A stretch of 64,000 bases of DNA from IMG/VR virus record IMGVR_UViG_3300037116_000081, positions 21,925 to 85,924 of that record. One strand, 5' to 3'. Made by a program: the position numbers and the translations under genes. The notes under the pieces are model-generated. The model was given only the letters and a program-made list of their open reading frames with translations. It made no database searches and was not told where the DNA came from. Below are positions 4,235-17,136 of this stretch, one piece after another; position 1 is the first letter of the stretch; every line of letters begins with the position of its first letter. Origin of the DNA: a virus.

Positions 4235-4345
4235 ATGAAGTTGAGAGGCTGGATACTCATGGCTCTCTGGAGTGGTTTCTACAGAAGCATCTTGCGTTTT
4301 GTGCCGCACTGGAATTGCGGCACGGAGAAAGGTCGATCCGAATGA
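4235..4345 (+). CDS. mini-ORF running through hairpin L1 (MKLRGWILMALWSGFYRSILRFVPHWNCGTEKGRSE)
   Basis: GAGGG SD; stop overlaps the ATG of the next gene (ATGA); translated by hand. Confidence 0.5.
   Translation: MKLRGWILMALWSGFYRSILRFVPHWNCGTEKGRSE
4295..4330 (+). repeat. cassette left-end hairpin L1 (GTGCCGCA-CTGGAAT-TGCGGCAC)
   Basis: 8-bp perfect stem, conserved loop, preceded by CGTTTT and followed by GGAG. Confidence 0.85.
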
Positions 4346-4596
4346 ACGATAATCCGCTAGGCCCATTGCAGGGCACATCGAGTCAGCAGTTCCACCTGAA
4401 CACGCTGGATTTCCAGAAAGTCGGCCGCATGGTGCTAGTGCAGATCATCGGGCTCGGCCTGACGCTCGGGGTTCCGTGGTTGCTGAAGCTTTCCTACGTG
4501 TGGAAGGGCCACGATTACACGCCAGATGTCCTGATCGTGGTGAACTGCGTAGCTGAACTGGGGAGACGTTTTCTGACCGGGGCACCGAAGACCTGA
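4342..4596 (+). CDS. small membrane protein, holin-like; paralog of 24669-24923
   Basis: 84 aa from MNDNPLG; hydrophobic segments; near-identical protein on the minus strand at 24.7 kb. Confidence 0.65.
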   Translation: MNDNPLGPLQGTSSQQFHLNTLDFQKVGRMVLVQIIGLGLTLGVPWLLKLSYVWKGHDYTPDVLIVVNCVAELGRRFLTGAPKT

Positions 4597-4773
4597 AAGG
4601 AACCCATGAAAGATATCATTCAACGAGTGCTGCTTGAACAGACGAACCTCTCGGACGCAAAGGCGGAGTATGTGGCACGGGAAATCGTGAACGCGTTGGG
4701 GCCTTACGCGCGGAACGATGATATCGGCAGCAGAACCGAGTACGCGGAGTCCGCAACTTAAAAGTAGAGGCGT

Positions 4774-5181
4774 GTGTTAACCTTGATGTTGAATCCGTTC
4801 GCTGATTACCACTTCATCTTTGATATCATCTCTGGCGTTGCGGTTGTCGCGGGCTCCTACTTCGGGCTCATGATAAAGAACGCGCTCGGGGCCATCCGGC
4901 TAGAGCAGGCCAACGCGAAGTCCGAACTACTCTTACAGCAATCGCACACGAAAGCAGAACTACTCGCCCATCAGAACGAAGTCAAAGAGGAAATGCTCGA
5001 ACAGCATGACGTGGTTGTCGAAGGGCAGCACGATTTAAGGGCCGAGTTTGTGGATAAACACGCTGAAAACAAACAATCTCTTGCGGTTCACCTCAATGAC
5101 GATGACCGCCGATTTGAAGCCTTGAACACAGTGCTGGCGCGGATCGATAAGACGGTCGAGAAGATAGCCAACGGGCACTGA
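4774..5181 (+). CDS. N-terminal TM plus coiled-coil protein (holin/XhlA-like lysis accessory)
   Basis: One TM helix followed by a heptad-rich region; same layout as 63299-63655. Confidence 0.55.
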   Translation: MLTLMLNPFADYHFIFDIISGVAVVAGSYFGLMIKNALGAIRLEQANAKSELLLQQSHTKAELLAHQNEVKEEMLEQHDVVVEGQHDLRAEFVDKHAENKQSLAVHLNDDDRRFEALNTVLARIDKTVEKIANGH

Positions 5182-5187
5182 CGACAG

Positions 5188-5225
5188 CCCAACCTTTGGG
5201 CGGGGATACTCCAGATCCCCGCCGA
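5188..5225 (+). repeat. cassette right-end hairpin R1 (GGCGGGGAT-ACTCCAG-ATCCCCGCC)
   Basis: 9-bp perfect stem; preceded by the CCCAA-cct-TTGGG mini-hairpin. Confidence 0.85.
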
Positions 5226-5303
5226 CACCTGACTGAGCACATTTGAACAGTATCAAAACCCCTGAACTGGGGTATACTCCAATCTGAAGAGGAGAAAACG
5301 AAA

Positions 5304-5597
5304 ATGTCTACCAAGCCTGTTCCAGCAACGGATAAAAACGAGAAAACCATCTCGGTGAACGTGGAAGGAAAATCGCGCCAAGTCGTCATTCAGCGGCACG
5401 AAACCACCACACACATTCTCGATCGGCTGAACCTGAAGGGCTATCAGCTCTCCATGGGGCCGAGCACGCCACAGAAAACTAACGTGCTCAACGCCGGCGA
5501 TATCGTTTTTGACAACGTAGTAGAAAACGAAGGGCTCGTCGCGACTGCGGTTCCGCCTGTCGGAAGACCTGCGCAACCTCAGCCCGTCAAAAAGTAG
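5304..5597 (+). CDS. possible ubiquitin-like (beta-grasp) protein
   Basis: Strong SD GAGGAG; beta-beta-alpha pattern ISVNVEG..RQVVI....TTHILDRLNL. Confidence 0.4.
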   Translation: MSTKPVPATDKNEKTISVNVEGKSRQVVIQRHETTTHILDRLNLKGYQLSMGPSTPQKTNVLNAGDIVFDNVVENEGLVATAVPPVGRPAQPQPVKK

Positions 5598-5602
5598 GGA
5601 CT

Positions 5603-5806
5603 ATGTTCCCTGCCTTTCTGATCCAGATTGTCATTTGCCTCATCATCGTGGGGCTCCTGCTGTACGTGGTCAACCTTCTGCCGATTGAGCCGAACATCAA
5701 GCAGATTATCCGGGTGGTGGTGATTGTGTTCGTTGTCATCTGGTTACTCTATGCTTTGATGGGTGCGGCTCCTATGGCTCCTATGAGTTTGCCCCTTAGA
5801 CGTTGA
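5603..5806 (+). CDS. two-TM small membrane protein (Thivi_2564-like)
   Basis: LIIVGLLLYVVNLLPIEPNIKQIIRVVVIV pattern. Confidence 0.65.
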   Translation: MFPAFLIQIVICLIIVGLLLYVVNLLPIEPNIKQIIRVVVIVFVVIWLLYALMGAAPMAPMSLPLRR

Positions 5807-5832
5807 ATCACAGCCGGCTTTAGGCGTATACT
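5803..5832 (+). promoter_or_regulatory. sigma70-type promoter TTGAAT-18-TATACT, leaderless start at 5839
   Basis: Direct motif reading; ATG lies 6 nt after the -10 box. Confidence 0.55.
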
Positions 5833-5850
5833 TCTGACATGAGCATCCTC

Positions 5851-5885
5851 CGTTTCGTGCGGCATTGGAGTAGCCGCACGGAGGG
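5851..5885 (+). repeat. left-end hairpin L2 (CGTGCGGC-ATTGGAGTA-GCCGCACG) inside mini-ORF 5839-5895 MSILRFVRHWSSRTEGCR
   Basis: 8-bp stem, loop variant TTGGAGT; GGAGG SD for the methyltransferase. Confidence 0.85.
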
Positions 5886-5891
5886 CTGTCG

Positions 5892-6308
5892 ATGACACCG
5901 ACCTTGCAGGCGCGATCTGTACACTTCAGCTCCTCATCAGACCGTTGGGCCACCCCGCGGGCCGTTTACGATGCGCTCGACGCGGAGTTTGCTTTTGATT
6001 TTGACCCATGCCCGTTAGATGGAAGCGCAGACGGCCTAGCCAGCCTGTTTACGGAGTGGCGTGGAAGGCGGGTATTCTGCAACCCTCCGTATGGCCCCGG
6101 CCTCGGAAAGTGGCTGGAACGTGGCCTAGAAGCCGAACTAGCAGTCTTCCTCGTCCCTGCCCGCACTGATACGCGCTGGTTCCATGACATCGTGCTACCA
6201 AAAGCGGTGGAGATACGATTCCTGAAGGGCCGCCTGACATTCGGAGATGCCGTCAACCCGGCCCCGTTTCCTAGTATGGTAGTGATATTCCAGAGGGCAG
6301 GTCGATGA
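5892..6308 (+). CDS. phage DNA N6-adenine methyltransferase (Dam-like)
   Basis: WATP, FDFDPC, VFCNPPY, PARTDTRWFH and RFLKGRL motifs. Confidence 0.9.
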   Translation: MTPTLQARSVHFSSSSDRWATPRAVYDALDAEFAFDFDPCPLDGSADGLASLFTEWRGRRVFCNPPYGPGLGKWLERGLEAELAVFLVPARTDTRWFHDIVLPKAVEIRFLKGRLTFGDAVNPAPFPSMVVIFQRAGR

Positions 6309-6460
6309 CCCGGCTGCTACTCGCGGTGTGGTGGTCTGCCGCTGGTTGGATTGCCATGTGCGCGGGTGTTAGCTGGATTCTTTTTAACGGTTGGTTGCGG
6401 AAGACAGTTCAAACTCTTGGGCGGGGCTACTCCAAGTGCCCCGCCGAAACCCCAAAGTAG
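6305..6460 (+). CDS. small membrane peptide ending across hairpin R2
   Basis: ATGA-coupled to the methyltransferase; MTRLLLAVWW...LGRGYSKCPAETPK. Confidence 0.5.
   Translation: MTRLLLAVWWSAAGWIAMCAGVSWILFNGWLRKTVQTLGRGYSKCPAETPK
6412..6447 (+). repeat. right-end hairpin R2 (GGCGGGGC-TACTCCAAGT-GCCCCGCC)
   Basis: 8-bp stem, loop contains ACTCCAA. Confidence 0.85.
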
Positions 6461-6618
6461 CGTATGACACTACAGGTCTGTGACGTATGCCGATTAGTAG
6501 ACGGAGACTTGTCAGTGAAGTTGTGCGACTGGTGCCAATCCTGTAAAGCGTGGATATGTCAGAAGGACTGGAATAACTGGCCCCGGCGCTCGCTCGCGGC
6601 TATTCGGAGAATGAGACA

Positions 6619-7239
6619 ATGAACCCCCTCGGCACACCAGCTTACTTACCAGGCATCGACGTTTCGCACTTCCAGGGAGTCATAGACTGGCAGCGCGTGA
6701 AAGCGGCGGGCATCGGATTCGCATTTATCAAGGCGACGGATGGGACAGGCTTTGTGGACCCGCAACTGAACTACAATGCTCTTGCTTGCCAAGCGCTGAG
6801 TATCCCGTTCGGGCTTTACCATTTCTTCCGGCCCACCGCGGACTCTGCGTCACAGGCTCAGTTTTTCCTGGCCAACACCAAGCCCTATACCCCGTTGCTT
6901 CCGCCTGCGCTTGATCTGGAACTCGGCCCGGTGACAACGAGTCAAGCGGCTACATGGCTCGACATCGTAGACGTGGCGCTTGGCCGCGAATCTCTGGTGT
7001 ACACTGCCCCGGCTTTCGCGGCCGAGAATTTTAACGGCGAAAACTCAGGACTGATCAGCGTCTATCCCCTCTGGATTGCAGAGTACACAACCAAACCTGC
7101 CCCAACTGTGCCGGCCGCGTGGGAAGATTGGGAATTCTGGCAGCACACCCCGAGTGGACAAGTTGACGGAGTACCGAATGCAGTAGACTTAGATTGGTTC
7201 CATGGAACAGCCGACGATTTAAGGGCATGGGTGAAATGA
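6619..7239 (+). CDS. GH25 lysozyme (muramidase) endolysin
   Basis: GIDVSHFQG, FAFIKATDG, LYHFF, LDLE, LWIAEY, FWQ and VDLD motifs. Confidence 0.93.
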   Translation: MNPLGTPAYLPGIDVSHFQGVIDWQRVKAAGIGFAFIKATDGTGFVDPQLNYNALACQALSIPFGLYHFFRPTADSASQAQFFLANTKPYTPLLPPALDLELGPVTTSQAATWLDIVDVALGRESLVYTAPAFAAENFNGENSGLISVYPLWIAEYTTKPAPTVPAAWEDWEFWQHTPSGQVDGVPNAVDLDWFHGTADDLRAWVK

Positions 7240-7253
7240 CCGCGAGCATTTTG

Positions 7254-7290
7254 CGTTTCGTTTTGCACTGGGGTAGCAGGACGCTGGGAG
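7254..7290 (+). repeat. left-end hairpin L3 (CGTTTTGC-ACTGGGGTA-GCAGGACG) inside mini-ORF 7236-7298 MTASILRFVLHWGSRTLGDR
   Basis: Stem with two G-T wobbles on the coding strand; GGGAG SD. Confidence 0.85.
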
Positions 7291-7298
7291 ATCGATGA

Positions 7299-7676
7299 AT
7301 GGCGACTAAGCGTAAACAAGTTCGACCCACGAAAGGGGAACCCGCTCAACCGTCTCCCGCTGGTTTTGAAGCATGGGCTATTATCGAAATCTTTGGCCAC
7401 CAGAAATACGCGGGCAAGGTTTCGGAGTTCGCAATCGGCGGGTGTAATTTCGTGCGCGTCGATGTTCCCGAGCTGCCCACGCGCCGTCCACAGGAACCGG
7501 CCATGCCCGCGTTTACCAAGCTCTTTGGAAACGGAGCCGTGTATTCGATCACGCTTGTATCTGAGGACGTGGCCCGCGCGGTCGCTGCGACGATCCGGCC
7601 AGAGCCGCTCAACGTTTACATCCCGATAATCCCTGACCGCCAGTTGCGCTCCGGAGACGAGGACGGATTTCAGTGA
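7299..7676 (+). CDS. conserved phage hypothetical protein (WAIIEIFGHQ..AG family); cassette cargo, duplicated at 11865-12251
   Basis: Highly similar paralog in inverted orientation. Confidence 0.8.
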   Translation: MATKRKQVRPTKGEPAQPSPAGFEAWAIIEIFGHQKYAGKVSEFAIGGCNFVRVDVPELPTRRPQEPAMPAFTKLFGNGAVYSITLVSEDVARAVAATIRPEPLNVYIPIIPDRQLRSGDEDGFQ

Positions 7677-7694
7677 TGTCGCCGACCGTTCGGA

Positions 7695-7740
7695 ATCTTG
7701 GGCAGGGCTACTTCAGTGCCCTGCCGACAGCCCCTGGAAC
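7695..7740 (+). repeat. right-end hairpin R3 (GGCAGGGC-TACTTCAGT-GCCCTGCC)
   Basis: 8-bp stem with a compensatory change relative to R2. Confidence 0.85.
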
Positions 7741-7752
7741 CTGAAAAGATTC

Positions 7753-8286
7753 GTGTACCTCTACTACCAACCCCGGCGAAGAAGAGGCTTCGGTGATCTC
7801 TCAACCGTTGCGGCCGCGATTCAGCAAATTGAAGGTTGGGCGCCCGGTACACGATCTTACCGCAATAACAATCCTGGGAACCTGATGTACGCGGGGCAAC
7901 CCGGCGCGACTGGCCAAGATCCTCAAGGCTTCGCAATCTTTCCGGATTATCAAACCGGGCTCACGGCGCTCGACAATCAAATCACACTCGACGCTTCGCG
8001 CGGCCAGACCATTTCGCAGTTCACGTCCATCTATGCCCCGGCGTCAGACGGAAATAACCCCACGTCGTATGCGGCGCAAATAGCTTCAGCGGCCGGCCTC
8101 TCACCTTCAGACTCACTTTCAGCAGCAATCGCGGGCTCCAGCTCGGCGCCCGACGTTTCAAGCGGTATGGATCTCTCATCGCTGTTTCCGTCGCTCAGCC
8201 TTCCGTCAATCGACTTCACGGACCCGACGACAATTGCCGTAACGGTGGGGATCGGCCTGGCGCTGGCGTGGGCACTGAATGCGTAA
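7753..8286 (+). CDS. virion-associated lysozyme-like/transglycosylase protein with C-terminal TM anchor
   Basis: IEG..PGTRSYRNNNPGNL, FAIFP and YAPASDGNNP motifs; C-terminal hydrophobic helix. Confidence 0.7.
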   Translation: MYLYYQPRRRRGFGDLSTVAAAIQQIEGWAPGTRSYRNNNPGNLMYAGQPGATGQDPQGFAIFPDYQTGLTALDNQITLDASRGQTISQFTSIYAPASDGNNPTSYAAQIASAAGLSPSDSLSAAIAGSSSAPDVSSGMDLSSLFPSLSLPSIDFTDPTTIAVTVGIGLALAWALNA

Positions 8287-8293
8287 CTCTTTT

Positions 8294-8327
8294 CGTTTTG
8301 TGCTGCCCTGGAGTAGCAGCACGGAGA
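8294..8327 (+). repeat. left-end hairpin L4 (GTGCTGC-CCTGGAGTA-GCAGCAC) inside mini-ORF 8279-8347 MRNSFRFVLPWSSSTENGRQRG
   Basis: 7-bp stem plus conserved loop. Confidence 0.85.
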
Positions 8328-8346
8328 ATGGTCGGCAAAGGGGGTG

Positions 8347-8454
8347 ATGCACTTTGCAATCTGCGCACTTTGCGGCGGCTACCATGCAATCGGATGCTGT
8401 CCAACCCCGCAGTTTTGCCCGCGCGTGGACGTGGTAGCGCTAGCGGGCCGGTAA
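8347..8454 (+). CDS. 35-aa Cys/His-rich peptide (MHFAICALCGGYHAIGCCP...), cassette cargo
   Basis: SD AAGGGGG; TGATG coupling; translated by hand. Confidence 0.5.
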   Translation: MHFAICALCGGYHAIGCCPTPQFCPRVDVVALAGR

Positions 8455-8463
8455 AACCACGAT

Positions 8464-8506
8464 CTCCCAACCTCTTGGGCGGGGCTATTCCAGTGCCCCG
8501 CCGATA
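8464..8506 (+). repeat. right-end hairpin R4 (GGCGGGGC-TATTCCAGT-GCCCCGCC)
   Basis: 8-bp stem; preceded by CTCCCAACCTCTTG. Confidence 0.85.
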
Positions 8507-8527
8507 GCCCCTATAGTACTTTCCAAC

Positions 8528-8556
8528 TTGAATTAAACTGGTGTGTGCAGTAGACT
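8528..8556 (+). promoter_or_regulatory. promoter TTGAAT-17-TAGACT, leaderless GTG at 8564
   Basis: Direct motif reading. Confidence 0.6.
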
Positions 8557-8563
8557 CTTTATC

Positions 8564-8743
8564 GTGCCCGAAGAACTTGACGACACCAACGAACTCTGCC
8601 CTGAATGCGGAGAGTCGATTAATGAGTGCGAGTGCGACGACGACGATATTTGCTGTGAAGAGTGCGGAGAGCTGCTGGCTGAATGCATCTGCGATCCAGA
8701 CGAAGACGGCGAAGGAGACGAGGACAACGATGAAATCAGCTAA
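8564..8743 (+). CDS. very acidic Cys-rich small protein (two CxxC..CxC repeats)
   Basis: CPECGESINECEC / CEECGELLAECIC; Asp/Glu-rich. Confidence 0.6.
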   Translation: MPEELDDTNELCPECGESINECECDDDDICCEECGELLAECICDPDEDGEGDEDNDEIS

Positions 8744-8940
8744 CCCTTACATCGAAGTGAACCTTCAGATCGACTACGATCTACTCGAATCACAGCGCTG
8801 CTTGTGTGGCGACCACAAAACGATGGGGCAGAAGATGTGTAACGGCTGCTACGCGAGACTCCGCACGGGCCAGCAAGCCCAACTCGCGGCAATGCAGCCG
8901 GGGGACGGCGTTGCGAATGCAGTAGCAGGATTGGTGCGGC

Positions 8941-9168
8941 GTGGCTGATATCGTTCACATTGCCGCGATTCCCCAGGAGAAAGAGCAACGCTGCCTCCGT
9001 TGTCTGCGAAAGCTGATCGACATCGACCCGGTAACGCAAGCCAGCTTTACGCCCACAGCCTTCGTGATGCAAACAGCGGGCGGGCATTGCGAAATCCAAG
9101 AGTCGGACGCAGGGCCGGGACAGATCGCATGCAGGGGTCGGGGTAGGCCACGGGAGAAAAGCATATGA
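8941..9168 (+). CDS. small hypothetical Zn-finger protein
   Basis: CLRC motif; coupled with neighbouring genes. Confidence 0.5.
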   Translation: MADIVHIAAIPQEKEQRCLRCLRKLIDIDPVTQASFTPTAFVMQTAGGHCEIQESDAGPGQIACRGRGRPREKSI

Positions 9169-9578
9169 CGTGCCCGAAGTGCGGCGCGGAAGTCCCAGAA
9201 GGAAAGATCGCCTGCCAATGTTTCCTGGTGGCTGTCGATAACGAGATTGAAACGCGCGCGCTGAAAAACTTTGCGGAGGGTCCACCACACACTTCGCGCT
9301 TGTACCTGACAAGCTCCCCCTCTAGCGGCTACCACTTAATGCCGATGCCGCGGGACTGCTTGACGCTGTGTCGCAAGAAACGCTACGGCAGACCCGAGAC
9401 CCGCATAATCTTCGCCGACGAGATCCGGAAGAAAGGGCTCGATATCACAAGCGGAAAGAAACCCGATTGGTGCATGGGCTGTCTGATGAAAGCGCTTCAG
9501 AGCGCGAACGCGGGAAAGCCTCAGCCGGCGAAAGACAACTCCGAAGAGCGCCAACCCCAAAAGAGCCAATGCGAATAG
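9165..9578 (+). CDS. hypothetical Zn-ribbon protein
   Basis: CPKC..CQC, CMGC; GGAG SD. Confidence 0.6.
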   Translation: MTCPKCGAEVPEGKIACQCFLVAVDNEIETRALKNFAEGPPHTSRLYLTSSPSSGYHLMPMPRDCLTLCRKKRYGRPETRIIFADEIRKKGLDITSGKKPDWCMGCLMKALQSANAGKPQPAKDNSEERQPQKSQCE

Positions 9579-9962
9579 ATGTAACTCCTGGTGATGTTCA
9601 AGTAGCCTCAGTTGAGGTACGCCGGCATACTGGGGGGATCTACAGCGTCCAAATCCTGACGCCACACGAACGGCGGGCCGGATGCATCGCGCACGGATCA
9701 GTAACTGGCAAGAATGATCCGCGTTCCCAGATGGTCTACCTGTACGCCTTTGAGCCTGGTTTGGGCGTACTGAATGCCCCGACGCGAATTCTTTTCACGC
9801 CAGAATCAAACGATGAAGAAGAAGCTTTTTTACTAGGCCTCTTCGACGTACTGGACGATTGGTCGCGCTACACCGTGGCGCTCATTGCAATCCCGGCTTC
9901 AGTACTTGAAGAAGCTGAAGAAGCAGGAAGCTGGGAGCCACAAGGGCCAGTGGACTACTTGG

Positions 9963-10637
9963 CTACCTGAGACCCGAGATCCGTTCCAGCAATCCCATGA
10001 TCCTGTCCAGCTTGTCTATTATACATTCGCGCTCCTCTGAGCTGTCTTTCGTCGGCTGTTCCTTTTCCGCGTTCGCGCGCTGAGGCGGCACGGCGAACGC
10101 GGCGCTAGCCCTGAGATTGGGCAACACGTCCCCCTGTGAGTTGCCGGGGAAGTGTGGGCCGTCGTGTCCGACGTCGTACCCACACCGAATAATCCGCGCC
10201 CAATCATTCTGAAACCCAGCAGAACCGTGAGGAGTTGAGTAGAAGTACGGGCACTGTTCACGGTGCTTGGCGCATCCAGCAACACCAGGACAGTCGGGCT
10301 GATCATTGTACATTCGCGGGCCGGCATTCCCGCAAATTCCGCATGGCGAATCCGCATATGCTGAATGGGCTCCTGAGTGGCCATTATTCAACTCGCATGA
10401 ATTCCCGCCCATGGTGTCCCTCCCGCACTTTTCACGCGGCATAGCGCCCTCCTTGTTTACTAACTTGTGTGGACCGTAATGCCCTTCGACCATGACACAA
10501 CCCGTCTCGTGGCACCGCACCAACGGAGTGAATATGTGCTCTCCGTCATGGCCCCGATGGACCCTACATTGCGTGGTGCCTTCGTAGACCCCGCAACGCG
10601 CTGGATCATGCGGCATAGCGCCCTCCTTGCTGTCCAA
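9963..10637 (-). CDS. hypothetical protein with four C-x4-GH-x-G-x-H repeats
   Basis: CRVHRGHDGEH, CVMVEGHYGPH, CELNNGHSGAH, CGYDVGHDGPH; internal KEGAMP duplication. Confidence 0.6.
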   Translation of the reverse strand: MDSKEGAMPHDPARCGVYEGTTQCRVHRGHDGEHIFTPLVRCHETGCVMVEGHYGPHKLVNKEGAMPREKCGRDTMGGNSCELNNGHSGAHSAYADSPCGICGNAGPRMYNDQPDCPGVAGCAKHREQCPYFYSTPHGSAGFQNDWARIIRCGYDVGHDGPHFPGNSQGDVLPNLRASAAFAVPPQRANAEKEQPTKDSSEERECIIDKLDRIMGLLERISGLR

Positions 10638-11160
10638 TATACACCGAGATCCCGAGACTCTTGATGTCCGAAGGTGCGAACCTCACAGTATAGCCGATCG
10701 ACTTCCCGAAGGTCTCAGCAGCAGCGGCAGCGGCTACAGCGGTCTTTAGCGCGTCTTCGAGCCGGGTAGGAGGAATAGACGTTGGGATACCGTCCAAGGG
10801 CTCAGATTGGTCAAGAATCGTTGCTATGGCTGTTTTAGGAGCTATCTTCGTCTCGTGCGGCAATGGAGTAGCCGCACGTTGGGCCCCGTTGGCTATCCAG
10901 TTGAAAGTACGCCCGTTCTGGTGTTTCGTGATAGTAAACGGCTGTCCGGGCCTTACGCCCAGGTCTTCGATCTGTGGGCCTACTAACAGTGGCGTGTACA
11001 GCAAGTCACCGTTTGAGAGTATCCAGCGGAGCTGATCTCCCCAGGTGCCGGGCACTAGTTTCCCGGTCGGGTACCTCAGTGCGATGGTGTAGGGCTTGTT
11101 CGGCTCCAACTTTAGGATTGGCATGTTAGCGGCGAGCCCTTTCGAGTTCATCTTCAGCAT
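10606..11160 (-). CDS. hypothetical protein, possibly OB-fold/SSB-like
   Basis: Long ORF with a putative TTGACG promoter upstream; start uncertain. Confidence 0.45.
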   Translation of the reverse strand: MLKMNSKGLAANMPILKLEPNKPYTIALRYPTGKLVPGTWGDQLRWILSNGDLLYTPLLVGPQIEDLGVRPGQPFTITKHQNGRTFNWIANGAQRAATPLPHETKIAPKTAIATILDQSEPLDGIPTSIPPTRLEDALKTAVAAAAAAETFGKSIGYTVRFAPSDIKSLGISVYIGQQGGRYAA

Positions 11161-11407
11161 CGTCTTCTTCTTCGACCGGATCGGCCGCGCGGCTTTGTGC
11201 TTGGCTGTGATCTTCAAATCGCCTCTGCTGGTCGCGTGAATAACGGTAAGCGTCCTGTGCGTCAATCGCTCTTTGTTGTTCTAACCATGTTTGCATCATG
11301 GTTAAGTTTCGCCCGCAGACGTTGGGCGCGTCACTGGATCGAAGGTACCGAAATGAAAGGCGAAGATGCCTATGCCAAATCAGGTGTTTGTCCTAGTACC
11401 GAATCCT

Positions 11408-11442
11408 CAGGGCGCTGCATTCCAGAGCAGCGCGAGACGCAG
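11408..11442 (-). repeat. left-end hairpin L5 (minus: GCGCTGC-TCTGGAAT-GCAGCGC) in mini-ORF MIFLRLALLWNAAP; no partner found
   Basis: 7-bp stem, conserved loop, CGTCTC flank. Confidence 0.8.
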
Positions 11443-11447
11443 AAAAA

Positions 11448-11795
11448 TCATAAGCGAGTGAACGTAATCTGATCTCCTACTTCTGTTGAAAGTGCTCCCC
11501 CAGAAGGAAGCTCAAGCACAGAATTGGAGCCGGATACTTCGGCGATTCTGAACCCAGGCGGTGCCGCAACATGCTGAAGCACGCGCCCGCGATTGTCCAG
11601 GTACAGCACGTCAATCGGAAACTTCATCCCCACCGTATGAACGCTCTGGCACTTCAAAATCAGCAAGCCTTCGCCGGCCTGCATCGACGTTCGATCGAGT
11701 AGCCCGCGCGTTCGTTCCTGATCTGATTGAGCTACTTTACAGACTGAACAGAGGAGTATTTGTTTGGTTTGATTGAATACTCTAAGGTGGGCCAC
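11448..11795 (-). CDS. DUF192 family protein
   Basis: ERTRGLL, GEGLLI, VHTVGMKFPIDVLYLD and VLELPSG motifs. Confidence 0.85.
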   Translation of the reverse strand: MAHLRVFNQTKQILLCSVCKVAQSDQERTRGLLDRTSMQAGEGLLILKCQSVHTVGMKFPIDVLYLDNRGRVLQHVAAPPGFRIAEVSGSNSVLELPSGGALSTEVGDQITFTRL

Positions 11796-11800
11796 TTCAA

Positions 11801-11851
11801 TTTCCAGGAGTTATCGGCAGGGCACTGGAGTAGCCCTGCCCAAGAGGTTGG
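11801..11851 (-). repeat. right-end hairpin R5 (minus: GGCAGGGC-TACTCCAGT-GCCCTGCC)
   Basis: Near copy of R3, including the downstream CCTGGAA. Confidence 0.85.
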
Positions 11852-11864
11852 ACGGTCGTAGAGC

Positions 11865-12251
11865 TCACTGATAATCATCCTCGTCTCCTGAGTGCAACTG
11901 GCGGTCAGGGATTACCGGAATGTATATATTGAGCGGTTCAGGGCGAATCGTAGCGGCAACCGTGCGCGCTACGCCTTCAGATACAAGAGTGATCGAATAC
12001 ACAGCGCCGTTCCCAAAAAACTTGGTAAACGCGGGCATCGCGGATTCCTCGGGACGTCGCGCTGGCAACTCCGGAACATCGACGCGCACGAAGTTACATC
12101 CACCGATTGCGAACTCGGAAACCTTGCCGGCGTATTTTTGATGTCCAAAGATTTCGATAATCGCCCATGCTTCAAAAGCAGCGGGGGACGGTTGAGCAGG
12201 TTCGCCTACCCGTCCCCCTTTGGGGTGTTGAACTTGTTTGCGAGTGCCCAT
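11865..12251 (-). CDS. conserved phage hypothetical protein, paralog of 7299-7676
   Basis: Sequence alignment by eye. Confidence 0.8.
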   Translation of the reverse strand: MGTRKQVQHPKGGRVGEPAQPSPAAFEAWAIIEIFGHQKYAGKVSEFAIGGCNFVRVDVPELPARRPEESAMPAFTKFFGNGAVYSITLVSEGVARTVAATIRPEPLNIYIPVIPDRQLHSGDEDDYQ

Positions 12252-12260
12252 TTTTCATAA

Positions 12261-12298
12261 CTCCCAACGTCCTGCATTCCAGAGCAGGACGAAACGAA
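12261..12298 (-). repeat. left-end hairpin L6 (minus: CGTCCTGC-TCTGGAAT-GCAGGACG-TTGGGAG)
   Basis: 8-bp stem; in-frame IRFVLLWN in a mini-ORF. Confidence 0.85.
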
Positions 12299-12463
12299 TA
12301 AATCCCCGCGCCCGGCTCCGTTTCACCTTTTCTGATCACCCCCCGGTAATTTTCAAGGGAAGCGGAGCCAGACACGAGACGCCCCGAATCTCCGCCGCTC
12401 GGGACCACGCGGGTTGCAATCGACGCTCGCCCGGCTAAGGTTGCGGCGCCGATCCGGAACTTG

Positions 12464-13036
12464 TTAAAGCTTCTTAGCAGCCTTGGCTGTCGCTTGGGCT
12501 GCTGTGGTCGTCGCGGTGGTACTCGTAACGGGCGTCGCGACTCCGAACAAATCACCAACCGCCGTCGCTGCTGTCGGTGACACAGTAACGGTATCGGTCA
12601 ACGTTTCCGCCGTCGATCCGTCCTTGTTGAGCACCGTCACTGTACAACTGATGGGGACATTCGGCTGCGCGGGAGCGGAAGGCGTCGATACCACACCGCT
12701 AAGCATGGTGAAAGTGCCAGCCGGAACCGAAGCTGTAGCATCTGCCGGCCGCACCGCTACGGGTGATGCGTCAGGCGTCAACGCGACGGTGGCAGGGTCC
12801 GCCGATACAGCGCTAATGGTTTGACCAGGGCCGAGCAACGCGCCAAGAAACGGAGCGGTGCCGAAAATGTAGAAATTGTCTGTGTCCCCTACGGGAAGAA
12901 TCAATGGCATATTTTCTCCTTTTGACTTTGAAAACAGAATGCCGATCCGACTTGGAACCGGGTTAATTAACCGTCGAAGCTCCTTGAGTATTTCTCTTTC
13001 AAGCTCAAGAATTTCTCTAAGCTCTGCGGGCCACAT
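12464..13036 (-). CDS. Pro/Thr/Ala-rich Ig-like protein with N-terminal extension; paralog of 22621-23097
   Basis: Shared MPLILP.GDT..YIFGTAPFLGALLGPGQTIS sequence. Confidence 0.7.
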   Translation of the reverse strand: MWPAELREILELEREILKELRRLINPVPSRIGILFSKSKGENMPLILPVGDTDNFYIFGTAPFLGALLGPGQTISAVSADPATVALTPDASPVAVRPADATASVPAGTFTMLSGVVSTPSAPAQPNVPISCTVTVLNKDGSTAETLTDTVTVSPTAATAVGDLFGVATPVTSTTATTTAAQATAKAAKKL

Positions 13037-13038
13037 TT

Positions 13039-13257
13039 CTAGGCCGTGGGTGTTGCGGGCTTCGCCGCGGCGGTTTTTGCCGCTATCGCTGCCTGAAGTC
13101 CTTGAATGGCCGTCATGGCCGCAGTGTCATTGACGTCCGCCTGGGCGAGCACCATAATGGTAGTGCTGCCGTCCGGATGCACCAAGCTAAGAATCAGGTT
13201 CACGATCCCCGGAGCCTGACCGATCAATGTTGTGATGATTGGCAATATCAAGCCCAT
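13039..13257 (-). CDS. small amphipathic membrane protein; paralog of 23250-23465
   Basis: Paralogy and operon coupling. Confidence 0.65.
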   Translation of the reverse strand: MGLILPIITTLIGQAPGIVNLILSLVHPDGSTTIMVLAQADVNDTAAMTAIQGLQAAIAAKTAAAKPATPTA

Positions 13258-13737
13258 TTATGTCCCCACCTTTGCTTGGATTATTTGGAGCGTCACCACG
13301 AGACTGCTCAGCGCTGTCGTGATAGCCACCTTTGCGGCCGCGTTTTTGATATTGAAAACATCCCCGGAGGTGATCGACGCCTGCGCCTCTTGAATGATTG
13401 GGGTGATAATCGCCGCTATCGAGGTATTCCCCGCAGCCGCGAGCGTACTGATGGCTTTGGTTGCCGTCACAGCGCGCACATTGGCGTTGATGATGTCCGT
13501 CAGGAGCGCCGCTACCCTAGTTCCTTCAGCCGGCGTCATAGCGCCCTGGTTCACCAACGCCGTGCTCGTGTTGGCAACGATCGTCACGCCTTGGGGAATG
13601 GCCACTTCGGCATTGGCCACAATCTGAAGCGGTGTGAGCGCAGGCGCGCCGACCGAGCCTACTTTCGCGCATCCAGTCAACGCCACGAAAAAGATGAGCG
13701 GCAGGATCAGTGCCGCACGATGAAATTTAATAGGCAT
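13258..13737 (-). CDS. lipoprotein (LTG-C lipobox), helical; paralog of 23467-23959
   Basis: Signal peptide II pattern. Confidence 0.75.
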   Translation of the reverse strand: MPIKFHRAALILPLIFFVALTGCAKVGSVGAPALTPLQIVANAEVAIPQGVTIVANTSTALVNQGAMTPAEGTRVAALLTDIINANVRAVTATKAISTLAAAGNTSIAAIITPIIQEAQASITSGDVFNIKNAAAKVAITTALSSLVVTLQIIQAKVGT

Positions 13738-13738
13738 G

Positions 13739-14095
13739 TTAGCTCAGTACGTTTTGAATGCTCTCGCCGTTTGCCACGCGCACGATGATCATTCCTGCCG
13801 CCTCGTAGTTCCCAAAGGCTTCGATCCAGATTTGCAGGTACAGCAAATCGTTCGCCGGGTCCACTCCGAGCGTGGTCAGGTCTTGGTTCGGGTCCACCCA
13901 CGGGGCCGAGCCGTTATTCTGTGTGGTGTTGAGCGGGCACATGAGGTTTTGGCCCCCACCCGTTTCGTTAGCGAAGAGCGCGATCGGTTGGCCTTTGTCG
14001 ATACCGGCCGCGACGATTGAAGCTATCAGGGCTTGCGCCGCGTTCACGGTCACATTCAGCGAAGCGCGCCCCGCTGTGAATCCTTGAGTGTTCAT
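13739..14095 (-). CDS. hypothetical protein; paralog of 23961-24308
   Basis: SD AAGGAG; shared RASLN, PW.D..Q.L..LGV and YLQIW. Confidence 0.7.
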   Translation of the reverse strand: MNTQGFTAGRASLNVTVNAAQALIASIVAAGIDKGQPIALFANETGGGQNLMCPLNTTQNNGSAPWVDPNQDLTTLGVDPANDLLYLQIWIEAFGNYEAAGMIIVRVANGESIQNVLS

Positions 14096-14136
14096 GTATT
14101 TCTCCTTTTTATTTTACCGCTACCAGGTTCTCAACC

Positions 14137-14164
14137 ATCATACTGCAATTCAGATAAGAAGCAA
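14137..14164 (-). promoter_or_regulatory. promoter TTGCTT-16-TATGAT for the four-gene lipoprotein module
   Basis: Positional equivalent of the promoter at 24328-24358. Confidence 0.5.
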
Positions 14165-14185
14165 GTACCGGAGCGTACCAGGACC

Positions 14186-14356
14186 TTACTCCGTTTCGCG
14201 CTGAACTGGGGTTTCAGCGCGTGAGGATTTGCGGGCACGCCACCACAGTTCTGGATCTCCGCTGCGATTCTTGTGCCATTTACCTTTGTGCCCCTTAGGG
14301 AGCGAGCATTGAGTGCCCCCACGCTTTCCGAACTCAGTTGAACGGCAACGCCTCAC
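14186..14356 (-). CDS. 56-aa cassette cargo (CSLPKGHKGKWH motif) ending in RAETPVQRETE
   Basis: Not in the ORF track; GTG start 6 nt after the hairpin-derived GGAGG. Confidence 0.65.
   Translation of the reverse strand: MRRCRSTEFGKRGGTQCSLPKGHKGKWHKNRSGDPELWWRARKSSRAETPVQRETE
14192..14222 (-). repeat. right-end hairpin C1 (plus: CGTTT-CGCGCTGAA-CTGGGGT-TTCAGCGCG)
   Basis: 9-bp perfect stem. Confidence 0.9.
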
Positions 14357-14436
14357 GATTGACCTCCCAACGTGCTGCTACTCCAGATTGACCTCCCAAC
14401 GTGCTGCTACTCCTACTCCAGTGCAGCACGAGACGA
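14357..14436 (-). repeat. left-end hairpin L7 with a partial tandem duplication and duplicated loop bases
   Basis: GATTGACCTCCCAACGTGCTGCTACTCC occurs twice, then TACTCCAGTGCAGCACGAGACG. Confidence 0.85.
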
Positions 14437-14444
14437 ATATAACC

Positions 14445-15278
14445 TCACAGAAATCTTTGATTGACCCAGCTCTGTACTCCATCCAGAAACTCAATTGGCC
14501 CAAAAGGCGTCTCCTGCGTTTTCCCGCATTCGTAATCCCAAACAGGCTCCCAGAGCTGAACCGATAACAGATCCCGCAAGTCCCGCTCAATCTCCGCGCT
14601 GTGCGTTGCGATGTGCAAGCGCTTCACTTTCGCGTTGAGGTCATCCAGCCCTGCGCGGATCACGAGGTATTCCTGGCCCTGTATGTCCACGTCGATCACA
14701 TCGACTAACTGGTGAGGGCGCAGAAGATCGGCCAACGTGACGGTTTCAGTTGTTAGCCCTTCTTCATTGAGCGTAGCTATCCGTTGTCCGTACCACTCAG
14801 CCGGCCGGCCAGTCAGAAAGAGACATTCGCCCGGTGTGTCCGATACTGCGGCTTCGACTAATGTCGGAATGATGCAAGGCGCTATGCCGAGTCCGTTATC
14901 TCGGCAATGTTGCAACATCCATTGGTAATGCGTGGGCTCCGCCTCCACCGCTACCAATCGGGTTCGCTCTAGCCCAGCCGCAAACGCCGCCCGCACAGAC
15001 CAGCGGCCATATCCGGCGCCCAGCTCCATGAACGTATAAATTTCGTTCGCGGCCTGCACGGATTCCAGTAGATCAATCCACTCAAAGTACTCTTCGTTGA
15101 ACGCAGGAAGCCCAGCTACTCCTACGGCGCCCGGCCCTTCCCTCGTTGTCTGCGCGGTGAATTCCGCCCGCGAAACAGTTCCGAGGAAGCTGTCACTTAG
15201 AAAAACAGGATTGCCCCACATGCGTAGAGGAGCCGGCTTCCGCACGAAATGAGAGAAGACTGGGTGATGTTCAGGCAT
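14445..15278 (-). CDS. FkbM-family SAM methyltransferase
   Basis: FMELGAGYG, VAVEAEP and VDIQGQE motifs. Confidence 0.85.
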   Translation of the reverse strand: MPEHHPVFSHFVRKPAPLRMWGNPVFLSDSFLGTVSRAEFTAQTTREGPGAVGVAGLPAFNEEYFEWIDLLESVQAANEIYTFMELGAGYGRWSVRAAFAAGLERTRLVAVEAEPTHYQWMLQHCRDNGLGIAPCIIPTLVEAAVSDTPGECLFLTGRPAEWYGQRIATLNEEGLTTETVTLADLLRPHQLVDVIDVDIQGQEYLVIRAGLDDLNAKVKRLHIATHSAEIERDLRDLLSVQLWEPVWDYECGKTQETPFGPIEFLDGVQSWVNQRFL

Positions 15279-15281
15279 TGC

Positions 15282-15605: not shown

Positions 15606-15895
15606 TCCGCCATCCGTCCTTTACAGAACTCGCGATGCGCTCCCCGCTGGCCCTGAAGCAACATCACTTCCACGCAATTACAGCACAGCCCCGCGTGTTC
15701 ATCATTCGCGCCTGCGCTCAGTAGCGCGCCGCACTTCCGGCAATTGTGTGGTTCAAACAGCGGACGGAGACGCGTTCCCAGGTCCCTACAGAATCGCGCG
15801 AACTGAAACGGATCAGAAACAGCCAATCCCAAACCAAGCAACGCGAGCAGAGGGAAGAACAACACCAGGCCGACGTAATTGAATGCGCGTCTCAT
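15602..15895 (-). CDS. TM plus Zn-finger hypothetical protein
   Basis: N-terminal TM, CRKC..CCNC; ATGA coupling. Confidence 0.6.
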   Translation of the reverse strand: MRRAFNYVGLVLFFPLLALLGLGLAVSDPFQFARFCRDLGTRLRPLFEPHNCRKCGALLSAGANDEHAGLCCNCVEVMLLQGQRGAHREFCKGRMAE

Positions 15896-17125: not shown

Positions 17126-17136
17126 AACCTGCCCAG

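What the first reader, a model, noticed from the sequence alone, without database searches (positions are those of the whole stretch)
7254..12298. The same cargo gene appears twice with both hairpin ends, inverted and among unrelated neighbours
The gene at 7299-7676 (+) and its paralog at 11865-12251 (-) are each flanked by an L hairpin (GCAGGACG arm) and an R hairpin (GGCAGGGC stem plus CCTGGAA). Similarity stops just outside the hairpins: the neighbours are GH25 lysozyme/transglycosylase for one copy and DUF192/Ig-like genes for the other. This is the best internal evidence that L-cargo-R moves as a unit.
Basis: seen in the sequence. Interest (0 to 1): 0.8.

Follow-up and report, generated by a model that had tools for sequence, protein, structure and literature searches.

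The report
Hairpin-bracketed gene cassette, present twice
A small phage gene of unknown function sits twice in this peat-soil virus, each copy between two members of a large family of conserved DNA/RNA hairpins that mark where related viruses swap accessory genes, but the two copies are old and do not themselves prove that hairpin-gene-hairpin jumps as one piece.

Summary
Genes 7299-7676(+) and 11865-12251(-) are paralogues (87% aa; phrog_29525, function unknown). Each lies between an upstream hairpin carrying the ribosome-binding site and an inverted downstream hairpin, among unrelated neighbours.

The ends are not private to this gene. They belong to a family of about 31-36 sites in the first 41.5 kb of the contig. 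I parsed 153 sites across this contig, a 44-kb relative (G001) and 36 metagenome loci, with about 10 more in an unrelated Bryobacteraceae provirus.

The copies are old (dS 0.74). Only the inner half of L is more alike than any two family members, so the original breakpoints cannot be read. No target-site duplication was found.

Relatives show cassettes changing at the hairpins:
- The copy-B slot holds one solo hairpin in three relatives.
- The copy-A slot holds other cargo in two.
- Another cargo sits in a different slot elsewhere.
- The exchanged units vary: L+cargo+R, L+cargo, or cargo+R.

No recombinase was found.

Best reading: self-contained expression cassettes punctuated by structured elements that also serve as recombination joints, as with T4 PeSLs. 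This scan noted similar hairpin-punctuated cassettes in other viruses.

The parts
7244..7298 (+). L_A: upstream element of copy A. Outer flank 7244-7258 (contains CGTTTCG), 5' arm 7259-7266, loop ACTGGGGTA 7267-7275, 3' arm GCAGGACG 7276-7283, Shine-Dalgarno GGGAG 7286-7290. The start codon follows at 7299.
   Evidence: (nhmmer E 1e-10). The stem has 6 Watson-Crick and 2 G.T pairs. It folds as RNA on the sense strand only: -12.6 kcal/mol, against no hairpin on the opposite strand.
7299..7676 (+). Cargo copy A, 125 aa. Family phrog_29525, function unknown.
   Evidence: no Pfam hit; phrog_29525, E 8e-12; 120 homologues. No match in PDB sequences.
7680..7750 (+). R_A: downstream element of copy A, a family member in the opposite orientation. 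Stem GGCAGGGC/GCCCTGCC 7701-7708 / 7718-7725, loop 7709-7717, outer flank with CCTGGAA 7733-7739.
   Evidence: (nhmmer E 0.1 on the - strand). RNA fold -22.1 kcal/mol.
12252..12306 (-). L_B: upstream element of copy B. Hairpin 12268-12291 (arms CGTCCTGC/GCAGGACG, loop TCTGGAAT), then TTGGGAG and the start codon at 12251.
   Evidence: (E 1e-8). RNA fold -19.2 kcal/mol, z -3.1.
11865..12251 (-). Cargo copy B, 128 aa. 87% aa identical to copy A, dN 0.061, dS 0.74.
   Evidence: (phrog_29525, E 6e-13).
11796..11860 (-). R_B: downstream element of copy B. Hairpin 11816-11840 (GGCAGGGC stem); the outer flank ends next to the DUF192 start codon at 11795.
   Evidence: (E 1e-5).
4285..19564 (.). The window's share of the hairpin family, about 25 sites. 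Each has a CGTYTCG flank, an 8-9 bp covarying stem, a loop with a CTGGRRT core, and on 5' copies TTGGGAG plus a start codon. Most alternate in orientation.
   Evidence: covariation: 0 of 500 shuffles reach it; 26 of 30 neighbour pairs are opposite across the whole contig.
6619..7239 (+). GH25 endolysin. Backbone gene left of the copy-A slot, conserved in G001 and L041.
7753..8286 (+). Transglycosylase-like gene. Backbone gene right of the copy-A slot.
11448..11795 (-). DUF192 gene. Backbone gene next to the copy-B slot, conserved in G001, L031 and L035.

Best explanation
The two genes are old paralogues, or separately acquired alleles, of a phage accessory gene. Each is packaged as a self-contained expression cassette.

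How the cassette is built:
- The upstream element (L) is a structured 5' leader: a stable hairpin with a conserved 7-nt loop, followed by the Shine-Dalgarno sequence and the start codon.
- The downstream element (R) is a member of the same hairpin family in inverted orientation at the 3' end of the gene.

How cassettes change:
- The roughly 50-bp elements are repeated about 30 times per genome.
- Because of that, they act as joints at which cassettes are gained, lost, replaced and copied to other slots when related or co-infecting phages recombine.
- This is a PeSL-like modular shuffling, by short-homology recombination or gene conversion rather than by a dedicated transposase.

Shown: the family, its base-pairing, its polarity relative to genes, and cassette differences between relatives that end at the elements.
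Inferred: the RNA-level role, the recombination mechanism, and the history of copies A and B.
For: The family:
- nhmmer finds about 36 sites with E<0.1, all in contig positions 324-41488.
- I parsed 153 sites with 55 different arm pairs in this contig, G001 and 36 metagenome loci.

Base-pairing:
- Of 1024 core-stem pairs in 128 unique sites, 997 are Watson-Crick.
- Covariation score is 0.457 against 0.162 shuffled, with 0 of 500 shuffles reaching it. The slid controls give 0.04-0.20.

Single-strand folding on the loop-CTGG strand:
- Stems hold 15 G.T against 6 A.C pairs.
- L_A folds only on the sense strand.
- Eleven sites extend the stem with T.G pairs.

Link to translation:
- 38 of 92 L-type sites have an SD, a start codon and an ORF of at least 30 codons within 45 nt on the 3' side. 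On the other side the figure is 15 of 92.
- The distance from stem to start peaks at 9-19 nt.

Polarity: 26 of 30 neighbouring sites in G000 are opposite (p=3e-5), and 17 of 25 in G001.

Joints between relatives:
- The copy-B slot holds a solo hairpin in 3 relatives.
- The copy-A slot holds other cargo in 2 relatives.
- The 53-aa cassette is an empty L-42 nt-R doublet in G001, L015 and L047.
- The slot after the transglycosylase gene has three states.
- The ASCH-like cargo is in another slot in L031.
- Hairpin, or hairpin plus ORF, is inserted at an ATGA stop/start overlap of two coupled core genes.

Rearrangement junctions fall inside the hairpins:
- a half-site at 16729-16760;
- a collapsed site at 30222-30241;
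- a tandem duplication starting in the loop at 14352-14409.

No enzyme: there is no integrase, transposase or HUH Pfam hit in 73 + 65 predicted proteins of the contig.

Precedent: in T4-type phages a cassette flanked by PeSLs is replaced by a single PeSL in the sister phage, which the authors ascribe to recombination between PeSLs (PMC2839356, section 16 read).
Against: - No transcript ends are known. RNA-library contigs cover only scraps (11585-11721 and 11850-12019 at 100% identity in X23, none over copy A), and DNA carry-over is not excluded.
- L and R are inverted relative to each other. Simple recombination between them would invert rather than excise, unlike the direct PeSLs.
- A purely RNA-level role does not explain why R keeps the same loop sequence in the opposite orientation.
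- Loop-loop pairing is not supported: 11 of 22 cassettes pair fully, against 10.5 on shuffling.
- R hairpins lack a T-run, and neither sigma70-like promoters nor canonical terminators are enriched.
- Arms differ between sites yet stay paired. Crossovers inside the hairpin should leave mismatched hybrids, and few are seen.
- Genes inside short inward-facing intervals were not significantly less conserved than those outside (Fisher p 0.79 in G000, 0.07 in G001).
- The same hairpin family occurs in a provirus that shares almost no genes with this virus. That fits horizontal spread of the elements themselves.
Confidence: 0.5

Rival explanations
1. L-cargo-R is a true mobile element. The inverted hairpins are its terminal recognition sites, in the manner of a MITE/TIR, REP/RAYT or attC element. 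An enzyme not encoded on this contig, from the host or a missing part of the genome, cuts at or in the hairpins and moves cassettes between slots and between unrelated phages.
For: - The pattern of conserved loop plus covarying stems is what structure-specific enzymes acting on folded single strands produce.
- Pairs face inward with fixed polarity.
- Copy B replaces a solo hairpin exactly at the outer edges of the elements, with no homology between the A and B flanks.
- Empty L-R doublets look like MITEs.
- Several junctions lie in the loop.
- ATGA(G) stands on both sides of one insertion.
- The family, with a cargo homologue inside an L...R pair, occurs in a Bryobacteraceae provirus that otherwise shares almost no genes.
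Against: - No recombinase, transposase or HUH protein was found among 138 predicted proteins.
- There is no target-site duplication at copy A or B.
- The exchanged units are heterogeneous: L+cargo, cargo+R, or the coding sequence alone.
- L041 carries a messy duplication of backbone ends typical of illegitimate recombination.
- The host MAG shows no excess of the motif outside the prophage contig (20 matches against 13 control).
- L carries the ribosome-binding site at a fixed distance, a constraint that has nothing to do with transposition.
Confidence: 0.22
2. A and B were never moved as hairpin-bounded units. Two diverged alleles of a common phage gene were captured independently into pre-existing L...R expression slots, such as empty doublets or slots holding other cargo. 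All end similarity is family-level constraint, possibly with local gene conversion.
For: - dS is 0.74.
- Copy A is 92% identical to P0002 from another contig but only 87% to B, and the tree is unresolved.
- The outer half of L and all parts of R are at background similarity.
- L_A and L_B differ in outer-flank subtype and in loop.
- Empty doublets exist.
- The cargo family occurs without these hairpins in three other viral contigs.
- The paralogue pair 4343-4600 / 24922-24665 shares only the coding sequence.
Against: - The rare 3' arm GCAGGACG (3 of 153 sites) and the inner flank of L are shared by A and B, in the top 2.5% of pairs.
- Both R stems are the minority GGCAGGGC type.
- The distant homologue in G002 also lies inside an L...R pair whose two loops share the variant CTGAGGT.
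Confidence: 0.2
3. The hairpins are protein-binding operators on DNA or RNA for genome-wide regulation, and have no role in gene movement. Candidates are a repressor, a translational regulator recognising an anticodon-loop-like 7-nt loop, or a nuclease processing site. Cassette boundaries coincide with them only because they are intergenic.
For: - The loop is conserved (T, G and T invariant in 30 sites).
- L stands directly before the SD.
- Sites are also conserved at fixed places in the core module of G000, G001, L012, L020, L021 and L043.
Against: - Solo, doublet and filled states occur at the same slot in close relatives.
- There are half-sites and loop-internal duplications.
- There is no Rfam match.
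- The same family appears in an unrelated provirus.
Confidence: 0.08

Closest known systems
PeSL (promoter-early stem-loop) cassettes of T4-type phages (Arbiol et al. 2010, PMC2839356, abstract and sections 13 and 16 read; Comeau et al. 2014, PMC4122927, abstract read)
   Same: - A repeated intergenic motif of roughly 50-100 bp with a stem-loop, ending in the SD and start codon of the downstream accessory gene.
- It is concentrated in the variable regions.
- Insertions, deletions and replacements between relatives end at the motif.
- A flanked cassette in one phage corresponds to a single motif in the other.
   Different: - There is no sigma70-like promoter here.
- The loop is conserved and the stems covary, rather than the promoter boxes being conserved.
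- The 3' element is an inverted copy, so flanking elements are not direct repeats, and the mini-circle excision proposed for PeSLs does not follow.
- The elements are also shared with an unrelated provirus.
SAS / ESAS of Cluster K mycobacteriophages (Pope et al. 2011, PMC3203893, passages read)
   Same: A conserved motif containing the ribosome-binding site directly upstream of many start codons, in about half the cases preceded by an inverted repeat. Function unknown.
   Different: - ESAS arms have a conserved sequence and a variable spacer. Here the arms vary and the loop is conserved.
- SAS sites are nearly all in one orientation.
- SAS has no 3' partner and no reported role as a cassette boundary.
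Bacterial REP/BIME elements and RAYT transposases (from my own knowledge; no paper read here)
   Same: Short intergenic palindromes with covarying stems, several sequence classes, alternating orientation in pairs, and suspected roles in mRNA 3'-end protection.
   Different: - This family is found in phage genomes, not in the host MAG.
- No RAYT/Y1 HUH gene was found on the contig.
- The 5' copies carry the ribosome-binding site.
- The pairs bracket whole genes.
dif modules of Acinetobacter plasmids (search listing and abstracts only: PMC13141974, PMC6449649, PMC12907356)
   Same: Accessory gene modules bounded by inversely oriented short sites that alternate in orientation along the replicon. 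Modules are shuffled between replicons.
   Different: - pdif sites have conserved XerC/XerD arms and a variable 6-bp centre (recalled), the reverse of what is seen here.
- No Xer dependence can be tested.
Integron gene cassettes with attC (from my own knowledge)
   Same: Cassettes whose recombination site is recognised as a folded single strand, with structure conserved more than sequence.
   Different: - No IntI was found.
- There is one site at each end in inverted orientation, rather than one attC at the 3' end.
- Stems are perfect and the loop is conserved, rather than conserved core sites at the stem base with extrahelical bases.
Phage morons (from my own knowledge)
   Same: Extra genes with their own expression signals, inserted between genes that are adjacent in relatives. 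An example is the insertion at the ATGA overlap of two coupled core genes.
   Different: Morons carry ordinary promoters and terminators, not a shared structured repeat family.

Membership tests
PeSL (T4-type phages) | Strong sigma70-like promoter (-35/-10 with an AT-rich upstream region) inside the motif | tested here: not met
   Promoter-like sites in 4000-20000 number 6, against 7.9 +/- 3.1 in shuffles. None lies at an L element.
PeSL (T4-type phages) | Stem-loop acting as a terminator or attenuator | tested here: inconclusive
   Stable hairpins are present but have no T-run, and none was called by the terminator scan. No functional test was done.
PeSL (T4-type phages) | Indels and replacements between relatives end at the motif; a flanked cassette corresponds to a single motif elsewhere | tested here: met
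PeSL (T4-type phages) | Flanking motifs in direct orientation, allowing excision as a mini-circle | tested here: not met
   The flanking sites are inverted: 26 of 30 neighbour pairs are opposite.
Integron cassette / attC | IntI-type tyrosine recombinase with an attI site | tested here: not met
   No integrase family was found among 73 + 65 proteins of the contig. The contig may be incomplete.
Integron cassette / attC | A single attC at the 3' end of each cassette, all in one orientation; conserved core sites at the stem base | tested here: not met
   There are two inverted sites per cassette. Conservation lies in the loop and the flanks.
REP/BIME with RAYT | Short intergenic palindromes with covarying stems in inverted pairs | tested here: met
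REP/BIME with RAYT | Cognate Y1 HUH transposase (RAYT) in the same genome | tested here: not met
   No Y1_Tnp or other HUH family was found on the contig. I did not search the host MAG for the protein; it has no excess of the motif.
dif modules (XerCD) | Sites with conserved recombinase-binding arms and a variable central region | tested here: not met
   There are 55 different arm pairs in 153 sites, and the central CTGGRRT is conserved.
dif modules (XerCD) | Modules bounded by inversely oriented sites that alternate along the replicon | tested here: met
SAS/ESAS (Cluster K mycobacteriophages) | Conserved motif including the ribosome-binding site a few bases before the start codon | tested here: met
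   38 of 92 L-type sites meet it, against 15 of 92 on the control side; stem-to-start distance is 9-19 nt. TTGGGAG follows L_A and L_B.
SAS/ESAS (Cluster K mycobacteriophages) | Inverted repeats of conserved sequence with a variable spacer, in one orientation only | tested here: not met
   Arms vary and covary, the loop is conserved, and both orientations occur.
TIR transposon / MITE | Target-site duplication flanking the element | tested here: inconclusive
   There is none at copy A or B. ATGA(G) stands on both sides of one hairpin insertion, but it is also the stop/start overlap that selection would keep.
TIR transposon / MITE | Transposase, in cis or in trans | tested here: not met
   None on the contig. 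A trans-acting source is not testable here.

The most novel reading that the evidence does not exclude
The hairpins are the recognition sites of an undescribed structure-specific cassette-exchange system of soil phages. On this reading it would be a phage counterpart of integrons or dif modules. Inverted hairpins with a conserved CTGGRRT loop delimit genes. An enzyme still to be found, from the host or encoded elsewhere, breaks and joins at the loop. Cassettes then pass between slots and between unrelated phages of Acidobacteriota, such as the 44-kb virus group and the Bryobacteraceae provirus.
Probability: 0.2. Interest if true: 0.85.

Novelty: new variant of a known kind. Interest (0 to 1): 0.6.

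Why it matters
How phages gain and shuffle small accessory genes is largely explained by illegitimate recombination followed by selection. Documented cases of dedicated joints, such as PeSLs in T4-type phages, are few.

This case offers several things:
- A dense and sharply defined family of about 30 sites per 44 kb, with 55 arm variants that all stay paired and one conserved loop.
- Clear solo, doublet and filled states in natural relatives.
- Presence in two phage groups that share almost no genes.
- Abundance across many peat and permafrost samples.

That makes it a tractable natural system for two questions. Do structured punctuation elements only regulate expression? Or do they also direct recombination, and through which strand (RNA or single-stranded DNA)?

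The elements are also a practical marker. One 23-30 nt pattern retrieved 36 related metagenome stretches and a provirus in a Bryobacteraceae genome. That gives a host clue for an otherwise unassignable virus group.

Tried and rejected
Of 22 cassettes whose 5' end could be assigned, out of 40 inward-facing pairs, 11 have fully pairing 7-nt loops. Random re-pairing gives a mean of 10.5, and 1012 of 2000 shuffles are at least as high. The commonest R type (loop CTGGGGT) mismatches the commonest L loop. Not supported.

Long-range L-R pairing in the cassette RNA. The fold of 7240-7750 keeps the local R hairpin and is not unusually stable (z +1.2).

Known RNA families. Rfam at E<=1 over 1-21000 gave only a chance snoRNA match.

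Canonical promoters and terminators are not enriched.

Host REP-like origin.
- The genome-collection scan with a 23-nt pattern gave 6 stretches.
- Two came from a 41-kb contig and one from a 43-kb contig, both binned into MAGs. One came from a provirus in a Bryobacteraceae MAG. Two had no family flank, in Streptomyces and Rhodobacteraceae.
- A looser pattern in three MAGs was not enriched over the reversed control.

Test that genes inside short inward-facing intervals are less conserved than genes outside. Not significant, and it is confounded by a 3.9-kb 'inside' interval of core genes. I dropped no rows.

Cargo function.
- No Pfam hit.
- A PHROG of unknown function.
- No PDB sequence match with a 41-sequence profile.
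- The protein atlas returns only unnamed viral clusters.

Sequencing runs.
- The stretch is held by 23 listed runs from peat and permafrost. One of them may be the source.
- Two RNA libraries hold small shares. The contigs cannot show transcript ends, and DNA carry-over is possible.
- Parts without RNA cover, including copy A, are not evidence of silence.
- DNA contigs show joints at hairpins (for example 8334>8468, 14223>14390, 16719>17062, 4330>7683). The shorter side is only 20-46 letters, about one hairpin, so they may be cross-matches between family members. I do not use them as evidence.

Relatives of the cargo in viral contigs (L001-L003) have no such hairpins; there are only two weak nhmmer hits, E 0.04 and 0.09.

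Supplementary files of the papers were not opened. They may hold PeSL and ESAS alignments that bear on the comparison.

Full report
WHAT IS THERE

The window is positions 21925-85924 of a single 85,924-bp virus contig.

How they compare:
- They form the longest inverted repeat of the window: 412 nt, 84% complementary.
- blastn gives 80% over 519 nt, 7241-7745 vs 12310-11796.
- Both belong to phrog_29525, a family without known function, and have no Pfam hit.
- tblastn finds only these two copies in the contig.

The neighbours are unrelated. A GH25 endolysin and a transglycosylase-like gene flank copy A. DUF192 and an unannotated ORF flank copy B. The 'Ig-like' label was not confirmed.

Each copy is preceded by a hairpin with 3' arm GCAGGACG, then TTGGGAG or CTGGGAG and the start codon. 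Each is followed by a GGCAGGGC-stem hairpin and CCTGGAA.

THE ENDS ARE MEMBERS OF A LARGE FAMILY

A profile built from 26 seed hairpins finds about 36 sites with E<0.1. All lie in contig positions 324-41488, which is window positions up to 19564. Only a half-site remnant lies beyond that.

Anatomy of a site: an outer flank containing CGTYTCG, an 8-9 bp stem, and a loop with core CTGGRRT. On copies that precede genes, TTGGGAG (or GGAG) follows, with a start codon 9-19 nt after the stem. A second 3' type (stem CGCGCTGAA, loop CTGGGGT) serves the minus-strand cassettes.

Evidence for base-pairing:
- In a plain MAFFT alignment of 30 sites of this contig, the stem covaries strongly. 82% of cells are paired against 65% on shuffling, and the covariation score is 0.457 against 0.162, with 0 of 500 shuffles reaching it. 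Slid controls give 0.04-0.20.
- Across this contig, a 44-kb relative and 36 metagenome loci, I parsed 153 sites with 55 different arm pairs.
- 997 of 1024 core-stem pairs in 128 unique sites are Watson-Crick, with 15 G.T against 6 A.C.
- L_A pairs through two G.T wobbles and therefore folds only on the sense strand. This points to a single-stranded form, RNA or one DNA strand.

Sites alternate in orientation: 26 of 30 neighbour pairs in this contig (p=3e-5) and 17 of 25 in the relative. The side that carries the ribosome-binding site faces inward.

No Rfam family matches. Sigma70-like promoters and T-run terminators are not enriched.

DOES THE A/B PAIR SHOW THAT L-CARGO-R MOVES AS A UNIT?

Less than it seems.

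The copies are old. dN is 0.061 and dS is 0.74, with 42 of 125 third positions differing. Unconstrained flanks would no longer align whatever the original breakpoints were. Both copies are under purifying selection.

The hairpin similarity is mostly what any two family members share:
- The outer half of L is 0.70 identical between A and B, against a family mean of 0.68.
- Only the inner half (3' arm plus 16 nt) stands out, at 0.83 against 0.59, the top 2.5% of 406 pairs.
- The three parts of R lie within the spread of other R pairs.
- L_B's best partner overall is another site, at 17636-17689, not L_A.

What does link the ends to the gene is the shared rare arms. GCAGGACG is in 3 of 153 sites. 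GGCAGGGC is in 5 of 153, plus R_A.

So on the L side, the specific homology starts within the hairpin.

There is no target-site duplication.

Copy A is closer to an allele on another contig (P0002, 92% aa) than to copy B (87%), and the tree of 11 alleles is unresolved. B may therefore have arrived from a relative rather than by copying within this genome.

WHAT RELATIVES SHOW

A 21-nt degenerate L pattern found one viral contig, IMGVR_UViG_3300050821_008300 (G001). It is 44,054 bp with a 97-bp terminal repeat. G001 is syntenic at 65-88% nt with contig positions 2.4-41.5 kb and carries about 26-30 sites.

A 30-nt pattern found 36 metagenome stretches, several from contigs of 43-44 kb.

None of these encodes the cargo.

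Slot by slot:
- (i) Copy-B slot. G001, L031 and L035 have one solo hairpin of about 58 bp, oriented as a 3' element, exactly where this contig has L_B-cargo-R_B (about 512 bp). The backbone aligns up to both outer edges.
- (ii) Copy-A slot. G001 has a different L, a 64-aa membrane-like ORF and a different R. L041 has L-cargo-R, then a duplicated piece made of the transglycosylase start and the endolysin end, then a second L-cargo. That is a scar of unequal or illegitimate recombination.
- (iii) After the transglycosylase gene. G001 has a solo R. This contig has L, a small ORF and the same R. L027 has L, about 440 nt and a different R.
- (iv) The 53-aa cassette of the core region is an empty L-42 nt-R doublet in G001, L015 and L047.
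- (v) Between the 506-aa and 168-aa core genes, L is kept while cargo (+R) differs.
- (vi) At an ATGA stop/start overlap of two coupled core genes, G001 and L043 have nothing. This contig and L025 have a solo hairpin. L046 has the hairpin plus an ORF of about 105 aa. ATGA(G) stands on both sides.
- (vii) The 158-aa ASCH-like cargo with its L and R lies in another slot in L031.

Rearrangement junctions inside hairpins also occur:
- a half-site that ends after the loop (16729-16760);
- a collapsed junction that joins a 5' arm to the outer flank of another site (30222-30241, compared with 17323 and 18538);
- a tandem duplication that starts in the loop (14352-14409).

The elements are therefore joints of cassette change. 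The unit exchanged, however, is not uniform.

ENZYME AND HOST

Scanning 73 predicted proteins of the hairpin-rich part and 65 of the rest against Pfam gave no integrase, transposase, HUH or other recombinase. PHROGs gave none either among the first 25 of 41 families listed for the first part.

A 23-nt pattern also hit an 81-kb IMG/VR 'provirus' (G002). G002 is identical over 1,779 nt to a 311-kb contig of a Bryobacteraceae MAG.
- G002 has about 10 sites of the family in the same inward-facing arrangement.
- It has a cargo homologue (38% aa) inside an L...R pair together with a 112-aa ORF. Both loops of that pair carry the variant CTGAGGT.
- Otherwise G002 shares almost no genes with this contig or G001.
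- The host MAG has no excess of the motif outside the prophage contig.

The family is thus phage-borne, crosses phage lineages, and points to Acidobacteriota as host.

MECHANISM

Best supported (0.5):
- L is a 5' leader hairpin with the ribosome-binding site, and R is a 3' hairpin.
- Together they make moron-like, self-contained cassettes.
- Their repetition provides short homology at which cassettes are replaced, lost, gained or copied by recombination or gene conversion, as proposed for PeSLs (PMC2839356, sections 13 and 16).

Steps shown: the structure, the polarity, the link to start codons, and the boundaries of variation.
Steps inferred: the RNA function and the recombination route.

Unexplained by this reading:
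- why R keeps the same loop in inverted orientation;
- how arms stay paired if crossovers fall in the hairpin;
- how the family reached an unrelated provirus.

These three points keep alive a dedicated structure-specific system (0.22). Independent capture of two alleles into resident slots (0.2) is also open. A purely regulatory operator with no role in exchange seems least likely (0.08).

COMPARISON AND NOVELTY

The system works most like PeSLs. It fails two PeSL features: a sigma70 promoter and direct orientation.

It also resembles:
- SAS/ESAS in its link to start codons, but with the opposite conservation pattern (PMC3203893, passages read);
- REP/BIME in form;
- dif modules in the alternating inverted sites (abstracts only).

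It is not a member of any of these.

My literature searches found no description of this family or of an equivalent one in phages of soil bacteria. Those searches cover open-access full text only.

Other agents of this scan have reported analogous hairpin-punctuated cassettes in giant viruses and archaeal viruses. I did not check those.

VERDICT

This is a new variant of a known kind. Interest 0.6.

Noticed in passing
whole contig; window 19441-20414 and 63685-64000; contig 1-1910: The 85.9-kb contig looks like two units of about 42-44 kb joined at a shared repeat.
- Contig 1-1910 matches 41365-43186 in five pieces of 72-95% identity.
- The contig end, 85609-85924, matches 41623-41938 (95.6%), and 85618-85704 matches 600-686 (98.9%).
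- Unit 1 has all the hairpins and matches the 44-kb G001.
- Unit 2 (window 19.7-63.7 kb) has the tailed-phage head and tail genes: TerL 61483-62943, portal 51602-53398, protease 46547-48223, capsid-like 44763-46133 and a 1330-aa tape-measure-like gene 37590-41582.
- DNA contigs of other samples branch at 19699-19794.
Possible readings: an assembly chimera, a helper/satellite pair, or a two-part genome.
   Followed up: partly
window 24349, 27197, 31517, 51010, 61458: A different repeat marks unit 2: five copies of a 20-nt motif with the palindromic core TTGCGCAA (D17, D15, I24). It is a possible operator or promoter motif of the second unit, which has no hairpins of the family studied.
   Followed up: no
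window 27215-27352: Three perfect tandem copies of a 46-nt unit (D13).
   Followed up: no
window 61267-61329: A 9-nt periodic repeat (D14), probably a repetitive peptide in a coding region.
   Followed up: no
window 18047-18100; L031 3860-3960; G001 40718-40800: Several cargo ORFs read through their downstream hairpin, so the hairpin encodes the last residues of the protein. For example, the 158-aa ASCH-like protein ends with the same hairpin-encoded peptide in two genomes.
   Followed up: partly
alignment A5 of the cargo family: The cargo family has a conserved core and a variable acidic C-terminal tail. In some homologues the tail ends in I/V-P-F/Y/L. From memory this recalls the C-terminal tip of bacterial SSB, which is a lead only. 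Homologues occur in Paraburkholderia genomes.
   Followed up: no
G002 (IMGVR_UViG_3300005531_000248) 1-1779 = L052 1779-1: An 81-kb provirus in a Bryobacteraceae MAG carries the same hairpin family and a cargo homologue. It is the only host clue for this virus group. Contigs of 41 and 43 kb binned into Phycisphaerales and Terriglobia MAGs are distant relatives of unit 1.
   Followed up: partly
L041 (reverse complement) 7740-7870: About 27 nt of the transglycosylase start are fused to about 110 nt of the endolysin 3' end, duplicated between two cassettes. This is a footprint of unequal or illegitimate recombination that doubled the cassette slot.
   Followed up: yes
window 4343-4600 vs 24922-24665; 12515-13719 vs 22702-23925: Genes of unit 1 have paralogues in unit 2 (80% and 73% nt). 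For the first pair, homology is confined to the coding sequence, and the unit-2 copy has no hairpin.
   Followed up: partly
all sites: The 7-nt loop reads C-U-G-R-R-R-U. From memory it has the outline of an anticodon loop (U at the second place, a purine at the sixth), and it stands just before the SD, as in the thrS operator. This is an untested idea.
   Followed up: no
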